From Candidatus Njordarchaeota archaeon (GTDB lineage: Archaea > Asgardarchaeota > Njordarchaeia > Njordarchaeales > Njordarchaeaceae), in the NCBI GenBank assembly GCA_029856615.1, contig JAHKLF010000001.1:1-28522 (forward strand): a stretch of 28,522 nt of DNA, given 5' to 3'. The notes under the pieces were generated by a model that was not told the DNA's origin, did no database searches, and saw nothing but the letters and a program-made list of their open reading frames with translations. Shown in pieces: positions 166-28,393 of this stretch. Numbering within the stretch: the first letter of the stretch is position 1; the number at the start of each line of letters is the position of its first letter. A program made the translations under genes and the position numbers.

Positions 166-582
166 ATGCCGATGTTTTATATTAAACGTGAATTTTACGA
201 AGCTTTAATGAGAGGCCGGAAAAAAGCTGAAATTAGAGTCGGAGAACAATGGGTTAAAGTTGCTGAAAAGATAAAAAATTGTCAGATAAAACCATTAGCG
301 ATATTTAAATGGAGTAATAAGATAATTCTCAGAAAGATCTACAAAGTAGAAATATTTCCAAGCATCCGAAGGGCTCTGGCTAATGGACGCTGGAGATTAT
401 TAGGATTAAGAGCAAAGACTTATACGGAGGCAATAGCAGAGGTCAGTAAGCTATATTCACGAGGCGCAAAGGGACCTAGTGTGTTTTTCTGGCTTAGTAG
501 GCTTAAAAAAAGTGAAATTGATGATGCTATAAAATATGCGAAGAAAGAAATCAGCGATGAGGATTTATTTGTATCGGTCTGA
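166..582 (+). CDS. ASCH/PUA-like domain protein (putative RNA-binding)
   Basis: N-terminal FYIKREFYEALMRGRKKAEIRV fits the ASCH signature (I..Y..I..G.K..E.R); C-terminal helical part is also compatible. Confidence 0.7.
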   Translation: MPMFYIKREFYEALMRGRKKAEIRVGEQWVKVAEKIKNCQIKPLAIFKWSNKIILRKIYKVEIFPSIRRALANGRWRLLGLRAKTYTEAIAEVSKLYSRGAKGPSVFFWLSRLKKSEIDDAIKYAKKEISDEDLFVSV

Positions 583-628
583 GTGGTGCACGTTCTTCAT
601 TAGTATCCGCGCAGGTTAGTGTCTTCAT
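578..628 (-). ncRNA. Box C/D guide sRNA A (double guide)
   Basis: Minus strand reads C AUGAAGA (628-622), guide CACUAACCUGCG, D' CGGA, spacer UACUA, C' AUGAAGA, guide ACGUGCACCACU, D CAGA (581-578). It is 51 nt with two 12-nt guides, both antisense to 16S helix-34 consensus segments. Confidence 0.8.
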
Positions 629-710
629 CCCGCTACTTCAATCATCTATATCCTTGTAGAATAAAAATTTTAACTCCTAAACATACTAACGTTAAATTAA
701 ATTATCTACT

Positions 711-766
711 ATGATGAGAATACGATTTTCGGATGAATTAATCATGAAGAACTGCCGTAGCTCTGA
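711..766 (+). ncRNA. Box C/D guide sRNA B (double guide)
   Basis: C AUGAUGA (711-717), guide GAAUACGAUUUU, D' CGGA, C' AUGAAGA (744-750), guide ACUGCCGUAGCU, D CUGA (763-766). The D guide is antisense to GCUACGGCAG, resembling the archaeal 16S ~1188-1197 segment. Confidence 0.8.
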
Positions 767-819
767 GGTATCCATCGCATTTTTTAACTATCTAAGTGCC
801 TTAATTATGTGGTGATACT

Positions 820-2160
820 TTGTCGACTAGTTTAAGAGAAACGATTGATAGATTAGAAAGAGAAAAGCTATTATTGCGTATCAATCATGCACTCTCACCA
901 AGATACGAAATTCCACTAGTCATACGAGAATTCGAGAATAAATTTGCTTTACTGTTCGAAAATATTGAGGGTTATTCGAACTTTAGAATTGTGGCGGGAA
1001 TATATGGGGATAGATATAGACTATCTACTGCTTTAGGATTACGAGAAAACGAGCTCCTGCAAAAAATTAATGAGGCGATAAGAAACCCCGAACCTCTTAA
1101 AGTTATTGCACATAGCTTTGATTATACCATAAAAGATGGCATTGATATAAACATTCTACCAATTCCTACCTTCTATGAAAAAGATAAGGGCCCATACATA
1201 ACCGCGGGCATAGTTATTGCAAAGGACCCAGAGACGAGTGTTAGAAATGCATCATATCACCGTATGACGCCTATTGGGAGGGATTTATTAGTGGTTAGAG
1301 TTGTGAAAAGAGATCTATGGCATTATTTACAGAAAGCACAAGAGATGGGTAAAGATCTAGAAGCAGCTGTAGTTATAGGTGTTGACCCAGCAACAGCTAT
1401 TGCTGGAGCCGCATCAGTACCGATCGATGTCGATGAGTTAGAAGTAGCATCTGCATTACTTGAAAAACCGTTAGAGATAACTAAAGGAGTAACCGTGAAT
1501 ATAGAATACCCTGCATCGGCAGAAATTGTATTAGAAGGTAGGTTTTTAGTTGATTCAATGGAGGAAGAAGGTCCTTTTGTTGATATAACAGGAACTTATG
1601 ATATTATTCGAAAACAACCAGTATTCCAAATTTCCGCAATATTATTACGCAGAAATCCTATTTTCCATACAATTCTTCCTGCTGGAATAGAACATAAAAC
1701 TCTAATGGGAATTCCTCGCGAAGCTAGAATTTATGATTCCGTCCGTGGAGTAACTATCGTAAGGGATGTTCATCTTGCTACATGGGGTTGTGGATGGTTA
1801 GAATGCATCATTTCCATCGAAAAACGCCATGAAGACGAACCAATAGACGCTGGTCTAGCGGCGTTTGCTGCTCACCCAAGCCTAAAAAAGGTCATAATTG
1901 TTGATCCCGATATAAATATAAGAAGCTGTGAGGACGTCTACTGGGCAGTTATAACACGTGCTCATCCTATTCGTGATTACATAATTATACCTCGCGGAAA
2001 AGGCTCCTCCCTTGATCATTCAGGTACTCCTCGTGCTAGGCTCATAGTGGATGCAACTATCAAGGGAGAAAAAACTTTGTTCAAAAGAGCTAATATTCCT
2101 GGCTCAATAAAAGCTGAGAAAATTATTAGTCGAATAAGAAACTCACTAAAATTGTGTTAA
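820..2160 (+). CDS. ubiD: UbiD-family prFMN-dependent decarboxylase, probably anhydromevalonate phosphate decarboxylase
   Basis: Motifs RNASYHRM, ELEVA, AEIVLEG, EGPFVDITGTYD, VDPDINI..V.WA..TR, GSSLD and DATI; TTG start preceded by GGTGAT. Confidence 0.9.
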   Translation: MSTSLRETIDRLEREKLLLRINHALSPRYEIPLVIREFENKFALLFENIEGYSNFRIVAGIYGDRYRLSTALGLRENELLQKINEAIRNPEPLKVIAHSFDYTIKDGIDINILPIPTFYEKDKGPYITAGIVIAKDPETSVRNASYHRMTPIGRDLLVVRVVKRDLWHYLQKAQEMGKDLEAAVVIGVDPATAIAGAASVPIDVDELEVASALLEKPLEITKGVTVNIEYPASAEIVLEGRFLVDSMEEEGPFVDITGTYDIIRKQPVFQISAILLRRNPIFHTILPAGIEHKTLMGIPREARIYDSVRGVTIVRDVHLATWGCGWLECIISIEKRHEDEPIDAGLAAFAAHPSLKKVIIVDPDINIRSCEDVYWAVITRAHPIRDYIIIPRGKGSSLDHSGTPRARLIVDATIKGEKTLFKRANIPGSIKAEKIISRIRNSLKLC

Positions 2161-2261
2161 AAAATCTTTATTCCTTAGTGTTCAGAGATATCGTTGCAAC
2201 AAGGTTCTTAGGGTCTAAATTCTGAGAGAAAAATGTTAGTTAAGAAGGAAGTATATTACAC

Positions 2262-2337
2262 TGGCGCCGCCGGCCGGACTTGAACCGGCGACCTCCCGGT
2301 TAACAGCCGGGCGCTCTACCAACTGAGCTACGGCGGC
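2262..2337 (-). tRNA. tRNA-Asn(GUU), CCA encoded
   Basis: GCCGCCG acceptor stem, D arm GCTC/GAGC, anticodon arm CCCGG-CTGTTAA-CCGGG, T loop TTCAAGT, G73 then CCA (2264-2262). Confidence 0.97.
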
Positions 2338-2509
2338 TTGTATTTTGAATAACTATCATTAAGCTAAAGTAATATTATTATCATTCTGCAAGTTTTTAAA
2401 ATTTATCTTACGTTAAGTACAACATATTATCCCCATGAAATGTAACGATATTCGAAGTCGTTTTTGATCAATTCAATGTTCCGGCTTTGTTTCAAATTCG
2501 TTCATATTA

Positions 2510-2851
2510 TCATAAACTCAGTAGGGTTGCTTGATTTAACACTGTGAGAACGTGAAGAATCAATAATACATGAAGAATATAGAGAGTATCCACGCTTGCA
2601 TAAGCCAGGATTATCTCAGCAATCTTTATTATTATGGGTTCTTCTATCATAACTGTCAATAATAAATGCGTCATTGAAATCGTAGTACTCAGAATAAGGT
2701 TAAGAATTATAATTATACACATTAATTTATAGATTATTAAATCACTGGGGTTATTAACTACTAACACCTTTTTTATTAACAATAATGCGCGTAGTTGCAA
2801 AGAAACATTAATTAAAGCACTTGCAATACGAATTGATGCTCGTATCGACAT
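2510..2851 (-). CDS. Hypothetical hydrophobic protein (~113 aa)
   Basis: ATG at 2851 follows GGGGTGA directly after the stop of the upstream gene; no better ORF seen in the interval. Composition is atypical and no family was recognised. Confidence 0.4.
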   Translation of the reverse strand: MSIRASIRIASALINVSLQLRALLLIKKVLVVNNPSDLIIYKLMCIIIILNLILSTTISMTHLLLTVMIEEPIIIKIAEIILAYASVDTLYILHVLLILHVLTVLNQATLLSL

Positions 2852-2864
2852 AAATGTCACCCCT

Positions 2865-3656
2865 TTATTCAAAAAATTCATCTCGGAATTTAATCATACC
2901 AAAAGTTTCGGGATATGAACTAGAAAATATGGTTATTATTAACCGTCGGTCTCTGCGGAGTTTTTTAATGTAAAAGCGATTGTCTATGAATAATTCCCAT
3001 ACTCTACCTAATGCTGGAACAACTTTCTCCACTGTCCATATATCCTCAATATGCTGCCCAAAAACTTTCGACTCCATAAGTGATTTGTCCTCCTTGATGT
3101 AGGCTCTGACTTGATTAGATACTACTATTGTACATCCATCGGATATCTTTTGTAAGAAGACGCCTAATTTGACAACAGTATGTAAATACTCAGAAGACCA
3201 CGCCTCTTCATCCTTAAATAATAATTCGCTCTCTAATATAGTGGGAACGGAATCAATTATTAACAATACCTCATGATCAGAAGCATTTTCTTTAATTTTC
3301 CCGATCACAGTTCGCATCATGCCATGTAGATCATTTATTTGGTATACATAAATTCTAGATAATAAACTTCGTGCTTCAATACTATTTGCTAAACATAATT
3401 TCACTATTCTTTTAGGATTAAAGCTCTTGTCGGCATCGATGTATAGAGCTATGCCTTCTCTGTAGCTATAAAGAAAGCGAAATGCTAATTGATGAAGAAG
3501 AATAGTCTTTCCAGCACCGGCAGCGCCACAAATTTCTGTTATTTCATAAAGAGGAAAACCTCCATGTTTATCGAAGAACGCTATCCCAGTGAGAAAGTAT
3601 CTCTTATAACTACTTGAAATGCGCCTTATAATATCATCCTTCGTTGGAATGATCAT
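2865..3656 (-). CDS. RecA-fold ATPase, RadA/RAD51 paralogue (RadB- or RAD51C/D/XRCC3-like)
   Basis: TEICGAAGAGKT Walker A, ALYIDADKSF, LLIIDSV Walker B, VVSNQV, PALGRVW; no N-terminal HhH domain. Confidence 0.85.
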   Translation of the reverse strand: MIIPTKDDIIRRISSSYKRYFLTGIAFFDKHGGFPLYEITEICGAAGAGKTILLHQLAFRFLYSYREGIALYIDADKSFNPKRIVKLCLANSIEARSLLSRIYVYQINDLHGMMRTVIGKIKENASDHEVLLIIDSVPTILESELLFKDEEAWSSEYLHTVVKLGVFLQKISDGCTIVVSNQVRAYIKEDKSLMESKVFGQHIEDIWTVEKVVPALGRVWELFIDNRFYIKKLRRDRRLIITIFSSSYPETFGMIKFRDEFFE

Positions 3657-3668
3657 CTCACCTAATGA

Positions 3669-3932
3669 TTAGTCTTCACCAGCTTCATTTAGTTGATCTA
3701 AGGCTTCTTTTAGTGTATCCTCATCAATAGAAATTTTCTTAATAGACTTATCCTTTATTACGCCTTTTCTCACAGATAATTCCTCCTCAACATCCGCGGG
3801 TAAGAGACTAACTGGCAATGTTTTATCCACTACTTCTTTATAACCGCATACTGGGCATATCGCAACTAATTTACCATCATCTTTTTTTATTGTCATAATA
3901 GAACCACATGCAGGGCAGAACTTTGGAGCCAT
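3669..3932 (-). CDS. TFS/RpoM (RPA12/Rpb9-like) N-terminal zinc-ribbon protein
   Basis: KFCPACGSIM...ICPVCGYKE; the second (catalytic) ribbon is absent and replaced by an acidic tail. Confidence 0.65.
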   Translation of the reverse strand: MAPKFCPACGSIMTIKKDDGKLVAICPVCGYKEVVDKTLPVSLLPADVEEELSVRKGVIKDKSIKKISIDEDTLKEALDQLNEAGED

Positions 3933-4120
3933 TTATAATCCGCCTTTTTATATACATTCAAGCATTAACTTGCATAGCCTATTAAGGTTTATAAAATTAT
4001 CTATTACAGATTCTTGGGTAAAAACGCCTTTAGTTACTTTAAGAAAAATACCTTTCAGAAAACAATGCTTAGTTACGTACAAAATCAGCTTACGCTGAAC
4101 TATACTATTATCTTTTTTAT

Positions 4121-4372
4121 CTATTCTAGGGTATATGCGAACACTCCCGGATGAATTATTTTAAGATACTTAGCCACTTTAGATTTCTCGGGGTTAACGA
4201 TAAGTACTATATCGGAGAAAATTTTCGTAAAACTTGTAGATCCACAATAAGGGCACACAATTACATCTCGACGCTTCTCCTTTCTTTCACGTTCTAACTC
4301 TGTTAGTGCAAAAACTCTTCTACACTGCAAACACGCTAGATACCTACTACTTAAAGACCTTCGTGGTGACAC
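4121..4372 (-). CDS. spt4: Transcription elongation factor Spt4 (RpoE'')
   Basis: ACLQCRRV...CPYCGS...IVLIVNPEKSKVAKYLKI..PGVFA matches archaeal Spt4. Confidence 0.9.
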   Translation of the reverse strand: MSPRRSLSSRYLACLQCRRVFALTELERERKEKRRDVIVCPYCGSTSFTKIFSDIVLIVNPEKSKVAKYLKIIHPGVFAYTLE

Positions 4373-4498
4373 ACTACTCTCCTCATCGAATTTTTGATAC
4401 TTCCTATTGATTAAGAACTACAAAAGTGTTTTTAAATAAGCATTACTAACAGATTTGTTATAGTATATTAGTTATGGTATATTTTTCCGAGCACTGCC

Positions 4499-4547
4499 AT
4501 GATGATGGAGGTGATCTCTGATAGATGATGATTCCTTTAAGTGCTGA
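4499..4547 (+). ncRNA. Box C/D guide sRNA C (double guide)
   Basis: All four boxes are consensus: C AUGAUGA 4499-4505, D' CUGA 4518-4521, C' AUGAUGA 4525-4531, D CUGA 4544-4547. Guides UGGAGGUGAUCU and UUCCUUUAAGUG are antisense to the conserved 16S motifs GAUCACCUCC and ACUUAAAGGAA. Confidence 0.92.
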
Positions 4548-4561
4548 GCGTAGGTGATGAT

Positions 4562-5473
4562 ATGATTCATGCCGTATTTATATTGGATGCTTCTGGCGTA
4601 CCTATTCTCACGTGGAAATCCAAAAAAGCTCCCGAATCTTTATTTAAAGGAAAGGATGATATTCTAATAGGAAGCTTTATTACTGCTCTATTAAACTTTG
4701 GTCAGGAAACTTTCGCCGCACCTCAGCGAATAGATTTCAATGGATATGCATTAACTTTCTTTTCAAGTAAAGTGAATAATAGACTTTATTGGATAGCAGC
4801 GATATCTGATAGCAAGGATCATAGAAAAGCTACAATAAATATGTTAAAGGACTTAAGTCAACGACTGGCGGAATTACTCAGTGAAGCTTCCCCTGAAGAG
4901 GGTGTTGTCTTTGAGACTTCCAGAATAAAGCGTAAATCAGAAATGCTAATATATAATATAATCAAAAAACATCTAAGATTCCTACCAAATATCAGATCCT
5001 CTCCAGTAAAGTCATTTGTCTTCTCTCTGATTCTGTCATCGATAATAAGTTTTCTATTATACAATGTTGTAGCAACGAATTTCTTTATTAGTATATTTTC
5101 ATATATAATCGGTAATAATGAATTTCTACAAGGGGCTTTAATCATCTCACTTAACATAATAATCACCGGAGTAATAGCGGGATATTTAGCTTCTAGAATT
5201 TCAAGTGGTTTTCTATCCGCCTATATATCCAGTTTTATCACTTGGATATTAGCTGGAGGAGTCATGGTATTAGATATTCTCTTTATGATTACGTGGGCTA
5301 TTTCTTTTGCATTAATAGCGGGCATTATTGGAGCAGTCATAGGATTCTATGCTGATTCTCGAAAATTAAAGATAGTCGAACAACCAAGGATTCTAACAGT
5401 GGAAGAAATAGAAGAAATGGAGGGAGAAATAGAGGTTTCTGAAGAGGAATTAAGAGAGCTTGAAAACATTTAA
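4562..5473 (+). CDS. Longin-domain protein with C-terminal multi-pass membrane region and acidic tail
   Basis: IHAVFILDASGVPI...DDILIGSFITALLNFGQETF...IDFNGYALTF...WIAAISD...MLKDL is a longin pattern, followed by ~4 hydrophobic helices. ATG at 4562 follows AGGTGA (the track's GTG at 4541 lies inside the sRNA). Confidence 0.75.
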   Translation: MIHAVFILDASGVPILTWKSKKAPESLFKGKDDILIGSFITALLNFGQETFAAPQRIDFNGYALTFFSSKVNNRLYWIAAISDSKDHRKATINMLKDLSQRLAELLSEASPEEGVVFETSRIKRKSEMLIYNIIKKHLRFLPNIRSSPVKSFVFSLILSSIISFLLYNVVATNFFISIFSYIIGNNEFLQGALIISLNIIITGVIAGYLASRISSGFLSAYISSFITWILAGGVMVLDILFMITWAISFALIAGIIGAVIGFYADSRKLKIVEQPRILTVEEIEEMEGEIEVSEEELRELENI

Positions 5474-5487
5474 TTTAAAAATTAACT

Positions 5488-5880
5488 TCACTTTTGATGA
5501 AGTTTGATCTCAGTCCATAAATCGCGAGGCACAGATACGCCTACTAAGTATACTAAATCTTGCCTTGTGAGCTCTGCGACTATCAATCGCTTATGTATAC
5601 TAAATTCAAAGAAATCATATGTAGGAGTTCCTTCTCCGCATGGAGACTTCCTCACTGACAAGAAAAGCCTCTTTGTTGGTAATCTTATAGGACCAGAAAC
5701 TTTTGCACCTCTATTCTTAAGGATCGCAACTAAACTACGAGTGAATTCTTCTAATTTGCTTACATCAATCCCAGCTACCTTAAGAGCTATTTTCATTCTT
5801 CTTATGCCAGGTGATTTCCTTTGTACACGCCGTCTTGTGAACCTTCTTGTGAGCCTTTGACTAGCTTGCTCTGCGCTCAT
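5488..5880 (-). CDS. rps10: 30S ribosomal protein uS10 (divergent, Arg-rich N-terminal extension)
   Basis: GAKVSGPIRLPTK..VRKSPCGEGTPTYD.FE..IHKRLI. Confidence 0.92.
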   Translation of the reverse strand: MSAEQASQRLTRRFTRRRVQRKSPGIRRMKIALKVAGIDVSKLEEFTRSLVAILKNRGAKVSGPIRLPTKRLFLSVRKSPCGEGTPTYDFFEFSIHKRLIVAELTRQDLVYLVGVSVPRDLWTEIKLHQK

Positions 5881-5967
5881 ATTAATAACCTCGAATCAAT
5901 ACAATAATTATACAATCTCTCTTTCTGTTAGTTGTGAAAAAATAAAAAGTTAATCATTATTCGATTT

Positions 5968-6096
5968 TTATTTACGTCTTCTCCTAACTGCTATCTTCCT
6001 TTGCGCATATACGTGATGAAGTAAAATGGCAACAATAGTTAATATTCCAAGTAAATAAATTATGTACTCTACGAGATCTTGCGGACTTATCTGCAT
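5968..6096 (-). CDS. Unannotated 42-aa single-pass membrane protein, OST4-like
   Basis: MQISPQDLVEYIIYLLGILTIVAILLHHVYAQRKIAVRRRRK*; ATG 2 nt after the upstream stop with a purine-rich RBS; one TM helix plus a basic tail. The ORF is well supported; the OST4 identity is an inference. Confidence 0.7.
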   Translation of the reverse strand: MQISPQDLVEYIIYLLGILTIVAILLHHVYAQRKIAVRRRRK

Positions 6097-6098
6097 CT

Positions 6099-6788
6099 TC
6101 ACTCTTCCTCTTCCACTTCTATGATTCCTAATAACTCTTGAATGTGCCTTTCTACTCGCTTAATATTTGGAACTAACGGAAGACTAATCATTTTTCTTTC
6201 TGAGGGAAAATATAAAACTAATGTTCCGCTCCTAAATAAAGCATACTCAAATATATCACTGATTTCTATAGAATACTTCATTCCATGCGTTGGATAGCGT
6301 TCAATTTTGCCAAATATCCCTCTGTGATGGGTAATCTGATTGGGTTCTATAATCCAATAATCCCATCGCCTACTAAGCCATATTAGAAACAGTGTAAATA
6401 AGAATCCAAAACCTACTAAGAAGTACGCATGACTTGATAAATACGCTTCTACGCCTAATAAAGCTTCAATCAATAAAGATCCTGGCACCACCTTTAGCTG
6501 TGCTAATAACAAGTAAACGAGAACAAGGATAACGATAATAGTTATTAATCCAAATGTTTTTGCCTCATTAAACTCAAATGCTATGATGAAGACGTTAAAT
6601 ATCAAGAAAAGAACGAATACGAGACCTAATGCTTTCTGGACACTAGGTAATGTACCTATGAATGGTATAGATTCTATCGTACCAAATATTATTGCAAGCA
6701 CAGCCGTTGGAAGAAGAGTAACAACTTTAGGATACGATCTTACAATTATTTTTTCTACCTCAGAGGAAGGCTTATTTGACGGTTGCAT
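6099..6788 (-). CDS. Multi-pass membrane protein with C-terminal bacterial PH-like domain
   Basis: About 4 TM helices, then YWIIEPNQITHHRGIFG...IFEYALFRSGTLVL (bPH-type pattern). Start moved to ATG 6788, which is preceded by GGGGTG. Confidence 0.7.
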   Translation of the reverse strand: MQPSNKPSSEVEKIIVRSYPKVVTLLPTAVLAIIFGTIESIPFIGTLPSVQKALGLVFVLFLIFNVFIIAFEFNEAKTFGLITIIVILVLVYLLLAQLKVVPGSLLIEALLGVEAYLSSHAYFLVGFGFLFTLFLIWLSRRWDYWIIEPNQITHHRGIFGKIERYPTHGMKYSIEISDIFEYALFRSGTLVLYFPSERKMISLPLVPNIKRVERHIQELLGIIEVEEEE

Positions 6789-6908
6789 ATTAAACACCCC
6801 AATATGTGTAAAAAACGAATATTTTTTCACCATTATTAAATTTGTATCATTCAGAGAAATGCAAGCAGGTAACAATCATTGGAAAAATAAATATATGGTG
6901 GAATTAAT

Positions 6909-7460
6909 ATGAAAAGACGAATTACTATTACCGTTCTTTTATCAGCGCTTTTAATTATAAGTCCAATCGCGTCTTATGGAGCTGATATAATAGCAGATGC
7001 TACAACAATCAAAGAGAAATATCGACAGAATGAAGAAATTGAAATTATGGCAAGTATTTTAAATAATGATACACGGCCTCTAACCTTAGTTCGATTTAAT
7101 GTCACAATAGTATACGCTAAAAAAATGGGAGGAGAAGTACGTTTAGCTAAAATGATTATAAGGGACTTAGAAAAATACCAACTTCAGTATCGCGAATCTT
7201 ATACGGTGCATGTGACGATTTCATTGAGTGATTTACCTCCAGATAAATACAATTTAACAGCGATGTTCATTTGTTACTATGAGCCGTTGCATGAAAGAAA
7301 ACTTGTCGTATTAAAAGATCAACAGTTTCAATTACTGCCTAGCATAGAAATCCCGCCAACGGTCATCTTCGTAGCTGTAATAATGGTGGCGATTATTGTA
7401 ATTTATATAGGATATGGTATCTCAGGAAGAGTAGGTAAAATCTTACGTCGACGAAAGTAG
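6909..7460 (+). CDS. Type I membrane protein (signal peptide, beta-sandwich, C-terminal TM, basic tail), TRAP-alpha-like
   Basis: Signal peptide, alternating beta-strand pattern, sequons NDT/NVT/NLT, TM helix then KILRRRK. TRAP-alpha similarity is by eye. Confidence 0.6.
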   Translation: MKRRITITVLLSALLIISPIASYGADIIADATTIKEKYRQNEEIEIMASILNNDTRPLTLVRFNVTIVYAKKMGGEVRLAKMIIRDLEKYQLQYRESYTVHVTISLSDLPPDKYNLTAMFICYYEPLHERKLVVLKDQQFQLLPSIEIPPTVIFVAVIMVAIIVIYIGYGISGRVGKILRRRK

Positions 7461-8027
7461 TTGTTTTAAATACTTTATCATTTCTCTTGCCGCCTTAGCT
7501 CTATGCGATATTTTATTTTTCTCAAAACGTTCCATTTCTCCGAACGTTTTTGAGTAACCTCTCGGAATGAAAATGGGATCAAAGCCAAAGCCTTTATTTC
7601 CCTTTATCTCACGCGATATTGTTCCATTAACAATACCCTCGAACATCTTTATTTTTCCATTATAGCAAAGAGCTATTACTGACTTAAAATACGCTGATCT
7701 ATCATCTATATCTTGCATAAGTCTTAGAATTCCTGAATTTCCTATCGTCTTATATACGTAACTTGAAAATGGTCCGGGAAAGTTATTTAAAGCTCGAATA
7801 AATAGTCCAGAATCTTCTATGAAGAAATTATCATACCCATTGGACAAGAGATGCTCGGTTGCAAACTTAACAATTTTAACTAAATCTTCATCTTGAATCT
7901 CAATCTTCCGTAAGTTAGTCATTGTGAGCTTTAGATCCATTTTTTCACTACTAAAAATCTCCTTAATCTCCAAAAATTTGTGTATATTGCTCGTGATGAA
8001 AAAAAGTCTCATACCCTTTCGCTCCAT
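7443..8027 (-). CDS. rdgB: Non-canonical purine NTP pyrophosphatase (RdgB/HAM1)
   Basis: FITSNIHK, EIQ, IEDSGL, FPGPFS, GFGFDPIF, KNKISHR. Confidence 0.96.
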   Translation of the reverse strand: MERKGMRLFFITSNIHKFLEIKEIFSSEKMDLKLTMTNLRKIEIQDEDLVKIVKFATEHLLSNGYDNFFIEDSGLFIRALNNFPGPFSSYVYKTIGNSGILRLMQDIDDRSAYFKSVIALCYNGKIKMFEGIVNGTISREIKGNKGFGFDPIFIPRGYSKTFGEMERFEKNKISHRAKAAREMIKYLKQLLSST

Positions 8028-8097
8028 GACTAAGCCTTTTTAAAAAATACTCCATTGTGAATTATACATTTAGATTTCTCATATACGAGGGAGAAAA

Positions 8098-8553
8098 ATG
8101 GATATAGTAGAGAAAGCGATAAATCTCGCTTTGGAGGGTAAAATTAGAGAAGCAGAAAAAAAACTAGACGTTTTAATATCAAGAAGACGAGACGATCCAC
8201 GCGTGTGGTTTCTTAAGGGTTTAATTGAGAGAAATAAAGGAAGAAATGAAGAAGCACTAAAAGCCTTAAATAGGGCAACAGAGCTTAGAAGTGATTTCGC
8301 TGAAGCATGGATTCTAAAGGGGTTCATTCTTAGAGATTTAAGAATGTATGATGATGCGCTTAGAGCTCTAAATAAAGCATATAACATCGAGTTAGAAGAA
8401 GACGATTACGAGGATTATGAACTTCTCATTGAAATGGCTCATATCTATGTCCTAATGGGACAGATAAATAAGGCTATAGAACTCTTAAATAAAGCTCAGG
8501 AAATTAACCCAGAAGACGAAAATTTAAAAAAACTCCTTAAGAGCATCCAATAA
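8098..8553 (+). CDS. Tetratricopeptide repeat protein
   Basis: Repeated W..KG...G..EEAL.AL..A.EL and A.IY..MG..AI.LL.KA.EINP patterns. Confidence 0.9.
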   Translation: MDIVEKAINLALEGKIREAEKKLDVLISRRRDDPRVWFLKGLIERNKGRNEEALKALNRATELRSDFAEAWILKGFILRDLRMYDDALRALNKAYNIELEEDDYEDYELLIEMAHIYVLMGQINKAIELLNKAQEINPEDENLKKLLKSIQ

Positions 8554-8588
8554 TTAATTTGTCTAATTTAGGGACAGTTTTATAGAGA

Positions 8589-9011
8589 GTGGTTGTATTG
8601 AATGATGAAGAAAAAGAAATCGAAAAAAAGAAACGTTTAGAAGTAATGAAAAGTTTGGTGCTCAAAATATTGAAAGACATAAGAGATCCTGAGACGGGAA
8701 TGAATCTAGTAGACTCAGGCTTGATAAGAGCTGATTTCGTATCAATTGATGAGAATGAAAAAAATATCGATATATCATGGATTCCAACTACACCTTTTTG
8801 CCCGTTAATTTTACATATATCAGCTGTAATACGATATATTCTGGTCAAACATTTTAAGGACTGGAAAGTCAAAGTTAAATTACATCCCGATGTTATTGGT
8901 AGTGATATGTGGAATGAGAAATTGAAGAACGAATCCTTATTAGAGTCAATCTTAAATGAAATAAAAGAACGAGGTTGGATGCAATACTTTTACTCTGGTG
9001 ATATTGAATGA
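8589..9011 (+). CDS. MIP18/DUF59 (Fe-S cluster assembly, SufT/PaaD-like) protein
   Basis: LKDIRDPETGMNLVDSGLI and PTTPFCP. Confidence 0.85.
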   Translation: MVVLNDEEKEIEKKKRLEVMKSLVLKILKDIRDPETGMNLVDSGLIRADFVSIDENEKNIDISWIPTTPFCPLILHISAVIRYILVKHFKDWKVKVKLHPDVIGSDMWNEKLKNESLLESILNEIKERGWMQYFYSGDIE

Positions 9012-9373
9012 CGATAAAAACTAAAACCACAAATGTCTATCTTTATGCTACGGTTAAAATGCTTCATAAGGTAGCTAGAGAAAAAAAAGCAAAAATTTGG
9101 CGCGTAGTTGCTGATATTTTAGAGAGACCAAGAAGAAAAAAAGTTGCAGTGAACCTTTCAAAAATAAATCGTTTAACCAAAGAAAACGATATAATAGTTG
9201 TGCCAGGTAAAGTGTTAGGTGGGGGAACACTTGATCACCCAGTAGTTATAGCAGCTTTTGCTTTCTCCGAAAGCGCTTTAAATAAAATCATAAAAGTTGG
9301 AGGAAAAGCATTAAGCATTAATGAATTAATAAAGGAAAATCCTAAGGGTTCTAATGTTAAGATAATCATCTAG
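9008..9373 (+). CDS. rpl18e: 50S ribosomal protein eL18
   Basis: RPRRKKVAVNLSKINR, VVPGKVLGGG, NPKGSNVKII. Confidence 0.97.
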   Translation: MTIKTKTTNVYLYATVKMLHKVAREKKAKIWRVVADILERPRRKKVAVNLSKINRLTKENDIIVVPGKVLGGGTLDHPVVIAAFAFSESALNKIIKVGGKALSINELIKENPKGSNVKIII

Positions 9374-9385
9374 ATTTTATACTGA

Positions 9386-9868
9386 GTGGTGATGACAATG
9401 AATGAAAAGAAAGAAAAGAAACCGGATTTCATTCTAGTTGATGCTTCTGACACAATTTTAGGAAGATTAGGGGCTCGTGTGGCTAAAATGTTGCTTGAAG
9501 GAAAAAGAGTAGTTATAATTAATGCCGAGAAAGCTATTATCTCTGGAGACCCTCAATATATAATAGAAAAATACAGAGCAAAATCGGAAATTCATTCAAG
9601 GACAAATCCTAGACGCGGGCCCTTTCATTATTCCCGCCCCGATTTATTTGTAAAAAGAACAATAAGAGGAATGCTCCCTTGGAAAAAATCCCGTGGACGA
9701 TTAGCTTATAAAAGATTAAGAGTTTACTTGGGAGTTCCTCCAGAATTCAGAAAATTAACGCCAATTAAGTTTGAGGATATAGGAATTAAAGAGAAATTCG
9801 AGAGCAAGTGGATTTCAGTCGGTGAGCTCCTAAAACAACTAGGTTGGAAAGGCATTGTCAAATATTAG
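9386..9868 (+). CDS. rpl13: 50S ribosomal protein uL13
   Basis: VDASDTILGRL, INAEKAIISG, RPD..VKRTIRGMLPWKK.RGR.A.KRL.VY.G.P. The true start may be ATG 9392 or 9398. Confidence 0.97.
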   Translation: MVMTMNEKKEKKPDFILVDASDTILGRLGARVAKMLLEGKRVVIINAEKAIISGDPQYIIEKYRAKSEIHSRTNPRRGPFHYSRPDLFVKRTIRGMLPWKKSRGRLAYKRLRVYLGVPPEFRKLTPIKFEDIGIKEKFESKWISVGELLKQLGWKGIVKY

Positions 9869-9894
9869 ATTATCCCTAACTTTAAAAATCGCTT

Positions 9895-10584
9895 TTACTT
9901 ACCTCTTATCCTTGACTTAAATATCGGAACCGTTAAACGAACCTTGTTCTCGTGAATGTAAGTAATACCCACTTCACTAGTGATTCTGAGAAACTCTAAC
10001 AGTTCGCTTTTCTTAGTTCTTAAAATTCTCGCTAACTCATCTATATCAATTTCTCCAGCTTGTTCGATTATTGGGAGAGCATGAAATTTAGGCTCAAATC
10101 TCAGCATTAAGTTAAAGAACTTCCCAAGCCTATCGCTAACGTTTGCTAAGTTCATTTGGCATAACCTCAACTTATTTGATAATTCTAGAACTTTTCTTTT
10201 AAGTTGCTCTACCTCCTTCTCTTCTTCTCTTGGAAGTATCCTTTCTTCTCGAATAGATGGTTTTAATGCATACTGCATACTTGATATTTCTCGTCTTAAG
10301 ATTGATGCAATATAATCTTGTATCATATCTAAACGCTCTCTTAAGACCTTATCAATAATGTCTCTTAGATATTGAATAACAGCCTGAAATATCCGTCTAA
10401 GAAGAGTTTCCATCAATAGTTTTTCCGATTCTCTTAAAATTCTCTCCCTCTCTCTAGAAAGCTCATCTCTAATACCATCAACGATATTCTGCACGAATAC
10501 ATCAACAGCTGTATCTATATGTCTTTGAAGGATCTCTTTTATGAGAGATTCATCATATTCGTTATCAGACACCACCAACACCAC
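9895..10584 (-). CDS. Hypothetical coiled-coil protein with C-terminal winged-helix
   Basis: Long helical/heptad region, then EIDIDELARIL..KSELLEFL..TSEVGITYIHENKVRL (HTH plus beta-wing). Confidence 0.7.
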   Translation of the reverse strand: MVLVVSDNEYDESLIKEILQRHIDTAVDVFVQNIVDGIRDELSRERERILRESEKLLMETLLRRIFQAVIQYLRDIIDKVLRERLDMIQDYIASILRREISSMQYALKPSIREERILPREEEKEVEQLKRKVLELSNKLRLCQMNLANVSDRLGKFFNLMLRFEPKFHALPIIEQAGEIDIDELARILRTKKSELLEFLRITSEVGITYIHENKVRLTVPIFKSRIRGK

Positions 10585-10718
10585 TTAATTTCTTACTCAT
10601 CTATACTTCCATACAACGCTATGTCTGTCGAGATTTTTACGAATTACTTAGATACAAGATTGTTACTAAATATGAAAAAATTTAACTAACTTTTTTATGC
10701 TACGTATAGGTTATGAAG

Positions 10719-10769
10719 ATGATGTAAAGCCTCACCTTCCTGATTACTGATGAAGTGCACCACCTCTGA
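10719..10769 (+). ncRNA. Box C/D guide sRNA D (double guide)
   Basis: C-like AUGAUGU 10719-10725 (or AUGAAGA 10713-10719), D' CUGA 10740-10743, C' CUGAUGA 10747-10753, D CUGA 10766-10769. Guides are antisense to GAAGGUGAGG and AGGUGGUGCA (16S-like); intergenic location. Confidence 0.85.
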
Positions 10770-28292: not shown

Positions 28293-28393
28293 GCCGGGGT
28301 TGCCGAGCTGGAACGGCGCCGGACTTGAGATAAGAACACTAGAAATCCGGTGGCGATTTCGCCTCGCGGGTTCGAGTCCCGCCCCCGGCACCA
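28293..28393 (+). tRNA. tRNA-Ser(UGA) with 15-nt intron (28330-28344) at 37/38, CCA encoded
   Basis: Same body as the tRNA at 19141. Anticodon stem CCGGA/TCCGG encloses 22 nt; removing ATAAGAACACTAGAA leaves the loop CT-TGA-GA. Confidence 0.9.

What the first reader, a model, noticed from the sequence alone, without database searches (positions are those of the whole stretch)
578..10769. Three dispersed sRNAs converge on 16S helix 34 and jointly predict a compensatory base pair in the unseen host rRNA
Seen: guides of sRNAs A, B and D. Their reverse complements tile contiguously as GAAGGUGAGG (D) + GCUACGGCAG (B) + GCAGGUUAGUG (A, overlapping B), giving GAAGGUGAGGGCUACGGCAGGUUAGUG. This has exactly the length of the E. 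coli 1178-1204 segment. Two other guides (A and D) both read GUGGUGCAC for ~1048-1056. Established: U1056 pairs with A1204 in h34 (recalled). Inference: the guides imply C1056 and G1204 in this host, a compensatory U-A to C-G change deduced from independent guides, and five 2'-O-methylations (~1050, 1051, 1182, 1191, 1197) clustered in the head of the 30S. sRNA A would clamp both strands of one helix, consistent with a folding-chaperone role.
Basis: partly seen in the sequence, partly recalled or inferred. Interest (0 to 1): 0.75.

Follow-up and report, generated by a model that had tools for sequence, protein, structure and literature searches.

The report
Archaeal guide RNAs targeting 16S helix 34
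Three small box C/D guide RNAs in this archaeal contig are real and all aim ribose methylation at helix 34 of the small ribosomal RNA, and the predicted C-G base pair is present in the closest relatives, but this is an ordinary, already described kind of system and the exact predicted rRNA string was not found.

Summary
The assembly holds no 16S gene.

Against the 16S of a same-genus genome, five guides land on helix 34 and the segment before it. The N+5 rule gives E. coli positions 1050, 1051, 1182, ~1191 and 1197.

Rfam's archaeal model pairs 1056 with 1204. The only two 16S genes known in this class read C1056-G1204. Six 16S genes from other classes of the phylum that show both positions read U-A. 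So the predicted pair very likely holds.

The reasoning is only half sound:
- C1056 rests on informative guide positions.
- G1204 rests on guide position 12, which pairs at chance level in this genome.

The 27-base tile was found in no collection. A 26-base register fits better. Three predicted bases (A1185, U~1190, U1200) remain untested.

Genome-wide, 9 of 18 16S-directed guides hit this region. sRNA A is conserved in 11 of 14 genomes of the class.

Double guides on both strands of one helix, and these target sites, are already published. This scan also reported helix-34 double guides before, in Hodarchaeales. Verdict: new members of a known kind.

The parts
578..628 (-). Box C/D sRNA A, a double guide for both strands of 16S h34. 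C box 628-622 (AUGAAGA), D' guide 621-610, D' box 609-606 (CGGA), C' box 600-594 (AUGAAGA), D guide 593-582, D box 581-578 (CAGA). Predicted sites Gm1197 (D') and Gm1051 (D).
   Evidence: Sequence. Orthologues in 5 of 6 genus genomes. The D guide with its boxes is in 11 of 14 class genomes, with 0 control hits. Guides match the G005 16S at 9/10 and 10/10.
711..766 (+). Box C/D sRNA B. C 711-717, D' guide 718-729 (GAATACGATTTT, no target found), D' 730-733 (CGGA), C' 744-750 (AUGAAGA), D guide 751-762 (ACTGCCGTAGCT), D 763-766. Predicted Am~1191.
   Evidence: B-like guides (..CUGCCGUAGCG) occur in G001, G002 and G006; in G002 one lies beside the sRNA A orthologue.
10719..10769 (+). Box C/D sRNA D. 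C 10719-10725 (AUGAUGU), D' guide 10726-10739, D' 10740-10743, C' 10747-10753, D guide 10754-10765, D 10766-10769. Predicted Gm1182 (D') and Gm1050 (D).
   Evidence: An orthologue with both targets kept is in G001 (L044).
4499..4547 (+). Fourth box C/D sRNA inside the reported span. It is not part of the h34 set: its guides pair with the 16S 3' end (GAUCACCUCC) and with ACUUAAAGGAA near position 910.

Best explanation
A, B and D are genuine archaeal box C/D sRNAs. Assembled with L7Ae, Nop5 and fibrillarin, each pairs about 10 nt (guide positions 2-11) with nascent 16S rRNA. Fibrillarin then methylates the 2'-OH of the nucleotide opposite guide position 5.

Predicted sites, by inference from the N+5 rule on the same-genus 16S:
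- G1050 (D, D guide)
- G1051 (A, D guide)
- G1182 (D, D' guide)
- A~1191 (B, D guide)
- G1197 (A, D' guide)

They belong to a larger h34-directed set in this genome. At least three more sRNAs on other contigs add U1049, G1061, C1065 and C1192.

sRNA A is an order-wide conserved double guide. Its two guides sequester the two strands of h34 around the 1056-1204 and 1057-1203 pairs. This fits the published 'methylate and help fold' model, which is inferred and was not tested here. The target sites of the different sRNAs overlap, so the RNPs must act one after another.

The host 16S very probably carries C1056-G1204, a covariation typical of this archaeal class. The real 1178-1204 segment is probably 26 nt, GAAGGUG(G/A)GGC(U/C)ACGGCAGGU(C/U)AGUG.
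For: - Architecture: box layout and 12-nt guides.
- Genome-wide scan: more than 30 canonical sRNAs, many with 10/10 matches to the G005 rRNAs.
- Hot spot: five window guides plus four guides from contigs C278, C118 and C123 fall on h34/1178-1204; 9 of 18 against 0.8 expected.
- Conservation: sRNA A in 5 of 6 genus genomes and its D guide in 11 of 14 class genomes, with no control hits. D orthologue in G001. B-like sRNAs in G001, G002 and G006.
- Pairing: Rfam RF01959 pairs 1056 with 1204 and 1060 with 1197.
- Covariation: G005 and G010 read GGUGGUGCACGG and GGUCAGUGUGCC. Six other 16S of the phylum that show both positions read U1056/A1204.
- Informative guide positions: positions 10/11, which face 1056, are Watson-Crick in 36 and 35 of 39 calibrated guides.
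- 26-nt register: position 11 of the D' guide of sRNA D pairs in both G000 and G001, and the G005 segment is 26 nt.
- Machinery: fibrillarin in 5 of 5 relatives, E about 1e-96.
- Published precedents: PMC4644070 main text, Table 3 and Fig. 5, and its supplements.
Against: - No 16S or 23S gene in the own assembly, so every target is read from a relative.
- Against that relative, the B guide has an A-C mismatch at position 4, the A D' guide an A-C mismatch at position 8, and the D D' guide a G-U at position 8.
- Fibrillarin and Nop5 were not found in G000, which is 76% complete.
- No Rfam family matches these sRNAs at gathering score.
- G005 has 12% estimated contamination. Still, its own sRNA A guide matches its own 16S at position 1200.
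Confidence: 0.85

Rival explanations
1. One reading: the host 16S contains the 27-nt string GAAGGUGAGGGCUACGGCAGGUUAGUG, every guide base being Watson-Crick paired.
For: The archaeal consensus and E. coli have 8 nt between GAAGG and ACG, which is the 27-nt register. One phylum relative (L016) reads GAAGGUGGGGGCUACGGCAGGUCAGUA.
Against: The string is absent from the own genome, genome contigs and metagenome contigs. The same-genus 16S has 7 nt there. In the 27-nt register, the informative position 11 of the D' guide of sRNA D would be a G-G mismatch in both G000 and G001.
Confidence: 0.07
2. The guide bases that disagree with the G005 16S report real substitutions in the host 16S. In particular U1200, at a nearly invariant C, has co-evolved with the sRNA A guide in five species of the genus.
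For: Position 8 of the sRNA A D' guide is A in G000, G002, G003, G004 and G006. It is G in G005 and in four family-f2 genomes. The two genomes with a known 16S (G005, G010) have C1200 and guide G. U~1190 would make both the B guide (A-U) and the C278 guide (G-U) workable, whereas C would put a mismatch next to the methylation site of B. Nanoarchaeum equitans shows that 1200 can vary.
Against: No 16S with GGCAGGUUAGU in this context exists in 185,579 species genomes or in the JGI metagenome contigs. All 12 phylum 16S that show the position have C1200. The A at position 8 may trace to a single tolerated mutation in one ancestor. About 4% of guide positions mismatch the G005 rRNA anyway. A1185 would break a C-G pair of h38 in the Rfam structure, and the G001 orthologue implies GGGG there.
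Confidence: 0.3
3. The D' guide of sRNA D is aimed at the 3' strand of h45 (GAAGGUGCGGCU, about 1517-1528), not at 1178-1188, so the first 10 nt of the tile are misplaced.
For: 11 of 12 Watson-Crick matches to that site in the G005 16S, with one U-C mismatch at position 8.
Against: The G001 orthologue guide (..GCCCCGCCUU.) fits GAAGGUGGGGC at 1178-1188 with one G-U, but would have a C-C mismatch on h45. The junction site lies in the same domain as the partner guide's target.
Confidence: 0.12
4. The motifs are chance box-like strings in intergenic DNA, not functional RNAs.
For: No Rfam hit. Non-canonical boxes in sRNA A (AUGAAGA, CAGA) and in sRNA D (AUGAUGU).
Against: Conservation across 11 of 14 genomes with zero control hits. 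The variant boxes are conserved in the orthologues. Guide matches to rRNA are far above shuffles when taken jointly.
Confidence: 0.02

Closest known systems
Long-range double-guide C/D sRNAs of Nanoarchaeum equitans, sR17 (h28) and sR15 (h30); Dennis et al. 2015, PMC4644070, Table 3 and Fig. 5
   Same: One sRNA whose D and D' guides pair with the opposite strands of a single 16S helix. The proposed role is to methylate and also to bring or hold the strands for folding.
   Different: The helix differs (h34 here). Several further sRNAs overlap on the same helix here. Nothing was tested experimentally in either case.
Catalogued crenarchaeal guides for the same nucleotides: Sulfolobus acidocaldarius sR6 (alignment G1026 = E. 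coli G1050), and the entry 'sR32 16S G1184 / C1205' (alignment G1184 = E. coli G1197) in the supplement of PMC4644070
   Same: The same target nucleotides as the D guide of sRNA D (G1050) and the D' guide of sRNA A (G1197). The mapping of alignment numbers to E. coli numbers is my own count on the supplementary alignment.
   Different: The guide pairings differ. Sac sR6 pairs G1026 with G1100, and sR32 pairs G1184 with C1205, so neither spans both strands of h34.
Yeast snR55 (Um1269), snR40 (Gm1271) and snR56 (Gm1428) on 18S h34; PMC5464676, PMC2794176
   Same: Several box C/D guides with overlapping binding sites on h34. Um1269 and Gm1271 fall on the GGUGG motif, which corresponds to E. coli 1049 and 1051. 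Here those sites are predicted for the C278 sRNA and for sRNA A.
   Different: These are eukaryotic single-guide snoRNAs. The position equivalence rests on my recalled yeast sequence, checked only for consistency with the paper's primer coordinates. The equivalence of Gm1428 to G1197 was not verified. Common descent is not shown.
Helix-34 double-guide C/D sRNAs of Hodarchaeales reported earlier in this scan (e1-5416545, e1-5444464, e1-5393569)
   Same: The same kind of object: a double guide on the two strands of h34.
   Different: Another lineage. I did not compare the sequences.

Membership tests
Archaeal box C/D sRNA | Terminal C box (RUGAUGA) and D box (CUGA) able to form a k-turn | tested here: met
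   B has AUGAUGA/CUGA and D has AUGAUGU/CUGA. A has the variant AUGAAGA/CAGA; its orthologues have AUGAAGA/CGGA, so the variant is conserved.
Archaeal box C/D sRNA | Internal D' and C' boxes with guides of about 12 nt between the boxes | tested here: met
   Guide lengths are 12/12 (A), 12/12 (B) and 14/12 (D). D' is CGGA, CGGA and CUGA; C' is AUGAAGA, AUGAAGA and CUGAUGA.
Archaeal box C/D sRNA | Guide complementarity of 9 bp or more to rRNA or tRNA, with a Watson-Crick pair at N+5 | tested here: met
   Five of six guides score 9-10 of 10 against the same-genus 16S, and position 5 is Watson-Crick in all five. The D' guide of B has no target. The host rRNA itself is not available.
Archaeal box C/D sRNA | Conservation of the boxes and of the guide target in related genomes | tested here: met
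   A: 11 of 14 class genomes. D: G001. B-like: G001, G002, G006.
Archaeal box C/D sRNA | Fibrillarin, Nop5 and L7Ae encoded by the organism | tested here: inconclusive
   Fibrillarin and Nop were not found in G000, which is 76% complete. Fibrillarin is present in 5 of 5 relatives. L7Ae was not searched.
Archaeal box C/D sRNA | Match to a curated Rfam C/D family | tested here: not met
   Only two tRNAs reach the gathering score. Rfam holds species-specific archaeal sRNA families, so this is expected and is not a defining failure.
Archaeal box C/D sRNA | Expressed as an RNA of about 50-60 nt, and the target nucleotide carries a 2'-O-methyl | not testable with these tools
No modification data are available.
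Double guide acting as rRNA folding chaperone (Dennis et al. 2015 model) | The two guides of one sRNA pair with the two strands of one helix | tested here: met
   The D guide of A covers 1048-1057 and its D' guide covers 1194-1204. Rfam pairs 1056-1204, 1057-1203 and 1058-1062 with 1199-1194.
Double guide acting as rRNA folding chaperone (Dennis et al. 2015 model) | Demonstrated effect on folding or assembly | not testable with these tools
The model is a proposal in the literature too.

The most novel reading that the evidence does not exclude
In this poorly known archaeal class (possibly Asgard, which was not verified) helix 34 is the dominant 16S methylation hot spot: half of the recognisable 16S guides, including three consecutive sites at 1049-1051. 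The h34 guide set would be the vertical ancestor of the eukaryotic snR55/snR40/snR56 (SNORD25) set. In addition, five species would have changed the near-invariant C1200 to U together with their guide.
Probability: 0.1. Interest if true: 0.6.

Novelty: new member of a known kind. Interest (0 to 1): 0.3.

Why it matters
It shows that guide RNAs in a metagenome bin can be used to read parts of an unassembled rRNA, but only from guide positions 2-11. It adds a conserved helix-34 guide family to an uncultured archaeal class. Biologically this is the expected behaviour of archaeal C/D sRNAs. Double guides on opposite strands of a helix, methylation hot spots near the decoding site, and these very target nucleotides are already published. 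A U-A to C-G covariation in an rRNA helix is routine.

Tried and rejected
I could therefore not recover the host 16S from reads or test expression, and read laying was not used.
- Four public scans found nothing: the 27/26-nt tile in genome contigs and in metagenome contigs, and two gapped patterns pairing an h34 5'-strand motif (C1056; C or U) with U1200 downstream.
- A search of the own genome for the tile with 3 mismatches gave nothing.
- Class-wide searches for further 16S fragments gave only G005 and G010.
- A BLAST-type search for sRNA D in the genus, and my first patterns for D and E, found only G000 or missed the register. Orthologues came later, through a box-plus-guide pattern.
- I tried to list the sRNAs of G005, to calibrate guides against its own rRNA. 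A canonical pattern gave 0 hits and a relaxed one gave 7, so calibration was done with G000 guides on the G005 rRNA instead.
- No rRNA or tRNA target was found for the D' guide of B.
- Checking that yeast Gm1428 or human Gm1490 equals E. coli G1197 failed; no paper in the library states it.
- Phylum identity: the profilin Pfam model gave only sub-threshold hits in G005 and G014, so 'Asgard' stays unverified.


Full report
**What is in the window.**
The window is a 35% G+C archaeal contig from a 1.8-Mb, 300-contig assembly that is 76% complete and holds no 16S or 23S gene. A box scan and direct reading show four box C/D sRNAs inside the reported span.
- sRNA A, 578-628, minus strand: AUGAAGA / CACTAACCTGCG / CGGA / 5-nt loop / AUGAAGA / ACGTGCACCACT / CAGA.
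- sRNA B, 711-766: AUGAUGA / GAATACGATTTT / CGGA / AUGAAGA / ACTGCCGTAGCT / CUGA.
- sRNA D, 10719-10769: AUGAUGU / AAAGCCTCACCTTC / CUGA / CUGAUGA / AGTGCACCACCT / CUGA.
- A fourth sRNA at 4499-4547, which is not part of this finding.

Rfam has no family that reaches gathering score on them.

**Targets.**
A same-genus genome (G005) and a same-order genome (G010) carry 16S genes.
- On the G005 16S, the D guides of A and D pair 10/10 with AGGUGGUGCACG, the 5' strand of h34.
- The D' guide of D pairs with GAAGGUGGGGC (one G-U).
- The D guide of B pairs with GCCACGGCAG (one A-C at position 4).
- The D' guide of A pairs with GCAGGUCAGUG (one A-C at position 8).

Numbering follows the Rfam alignment and the E. 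coli ruler in the supplementary alignment of PMC4644070. Archaea of this genus lack one base near 1188-1190, so '1191' is approximate.

Shuffled guides reach the observed scores in 0.1-6% of trials each.

**The base pair.**
- G005 and G010 are the only 16S genes found among the 14 genomes of this class. Both read GGUGGUGCACGG and GGUCAGUGUGCC, that is C1056-G1204 with a G1057-U1203 wobble.
- Six 16S genes from other classes of the phylum that show both positions read U1056-A1204. So do the seven reference archaea in PMC4644070.

The compensatory change is therefore real in this lineage, and the host very probably shares it.

**How good was the deduction?**
I calibrated guide positions with 39 guides of this genome that match the G005 rRNAs.
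- Positions 2-11 are Watson-Crick in 87-97% of guides.
- Position 12 is Watson-Crick in 9 of 38 guides and position 1 in 6 of 39, which is chance level.

C1056 is faced by position 10 of the D guide of A and by position 11 of the D guide of D. Both are informative, and G-U is rare there, so that half of the inference is sound. It is also shared by 11 of 14 class genomes, which carry the same guide.

G1204 is faced only by position 12 of the D' guide of A. That base is C, G, A, A, G, A in the six genus orthologues. A further sRNA of the same genome (contig C278) has A opposite 1056 at its own position 12. So G1204 was reached by a base that carries no information. It is right because C1056 needs a partner, not because the guide says so.

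**The tile.**
The 27-nt string assumes that the targets of D and B abut. In fact the D' guide of D continues to pair with CU, which overlaps the AGCU of the B target and gives 26 nt. That is the length of the G005 segment. The G001 orthologue of sRNA D shows the same two extra pairs. In the 27-nt register the informative position 11 would be G-G in both species.

Neither version occurs in the own genome, in 185,579 species genomes or in the JGI metagenome contigs.

Three predicted bases differ from G005:
- **A1185.** The guide U can wobble with G. The G001 orthologue implies GGGG. An A would break an h38 pair.
- **U~1190.** This is favoured. B-type guides in G000, G001, G002 and G006 have A there, and the C278 guide would still pair by G-U.
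- **U1200.** The guide base is A in five genus species. It is G in G005 and in four genomes of family f2. Both genomes with a known 16S have guide G and C1200. This looks like guide-target covariation, but it may be one tolerated mutation in one ancestor. No assembled 16S with U1200 in this context exists in either large collection.

I put U1200 at about one in three.

**Wider picture.**
A genome-wide scan finds more than 30 canonical sRNAs. Of 18 guides that match the 16S, 9 fall on h34 or on 1178-1204, against 0.8 expected (binomial 2e-8). The extra ones are:
- C278:1273-1324, another double guide on both strands (U1049 and C1192).
- C118:3593-3643 (G1061).
- C123:1189-1238 (C1065).

Sites 1049, 1050 and 1051 are served by three sRNAs with almost identical footprints, so the RNPs must bind in turn.

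In G002 three h34-directed sRNAs lie within about 350 nt; in G001 two lie about 160 nt apart. There the B-type sRNA is itself a double h34 guide, whereas in G000 its D' guide has been replaced by an orphan. This matches the shuffling of guide modules described in PMC4644070.

Fibrillarin and Nop5 were not found in the incomplete G000. Fibrillarin is present in 5 of 5 relatives.

**Comparison with what is known.**
- Dennis et al. 2015 (PMC4644070) proposed that double guides pairing with opposite strands of a helix act as folding chaperones, citing N. equitans sR17 on h28 and sR15 on h30.
- Their supplement lists guides for alignment G1026 (= E. coli G1050; Sac sR6 and one more entry) and for G1184 (= G1197; an sR32 entry).
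- In yeast, snR55, snR40 and snR56 methylate U1269, G1271 and G1428 in h34, with overlapping binding sites.
- U1269 and G1271 map to 1049 and 1051. This uses my recalled yeast sequence, which agrees with the paper's primer coordinates and with C1280 being a C. The equivalence of G1428 with 1197 could not be verified.
- This scan has already reported helix-34 double guides in Hodarchaeales on other DNA.

**Verdict.**
The exact predicted string is unsupported and probably one base too long. Half of the logic rested on an uninformative guide position.

Noticed in passing
window 594-609 (minus) and 730-750; genome-wide in G000 and relatives: The internal D' and C' boxes covary. D' CUGA goes with C' UGAUGA (20 against 3). 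D' CGGA or CAGA goes with C' UGAAGA (7 against 1; Fisher p = 3e-4). So the U-U pair of the k-loop is swapped for A-G or A-A. sRNA A uses the same variant for its terminal C/D pair in all six genus genomes. The lists for G003 and G006 show the same rule.
   Followed up: partly
window 4499-4547 (+): A perfect box C/D sRNA. Its D' guide pairs with the 16S 3' end (GAUCACCUCC, the anti-Shine-Dalgarno tail) and its D guide pairs with ACUUAAAGGAA near position 910. Similar anti-SD guides occur on G000 contig C3 and in G003, G005 and G006.
   Followed up: partly
G000 contigs C278:1273-1324, C118:3593-3643, C123:1189-1238: Three further sRNAs of the same genome are aimed at h34. The C278 one is a second double guide on both strands (predicted Um1049 and Cm1192).
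   Followed up: partly
window 718-729 (+); L042, L043: The D' guide of sRNA B (GAATACGATTTT) has no rRNA or tRNA target. In G001 and G002 the corresponding sRNA carries an h34 5'-strand guide (UGUGUACCACCU) at that place, so a guide module was replaced in G000.
   Followed up: partly
G005 (same genus), whole genome: G005 has no hit to the canonical C-D'-C' pattern that finds 12-24 sRNAs in each of four sister genomes, and only 7 hits with relaxed boxes. Its 16S matches the Rfam model in several pieces (model positions 221-1467), and the assembly has 12% estimated contamination.
   Followed up: no
window 28302-28393 (+): ARAGORN calls a 92-nt tRNA-Leu(AAG) with the anticodon at position 31, which Rfam's tRNA model does not report at gathering score. 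It may be a false call or an unusual or intron-bearing tRNA.
   Followed up: no
G000 whole genome: Fibrillarin and Nop5 (Pfam PF01269, PF01798) were not found in this 76%-complete assembly, although fibrillarin is in all five relatives searched. They probably lie together on an unassembled piece.
   Followed up: partly
L012 (G024) and L009 (G036): The 16S matches of two phylum relatives span 2.4 kb and 1.8 kb for a 1.48-kb model, which suggests rRNA introns or insertions.
   Followed up: no
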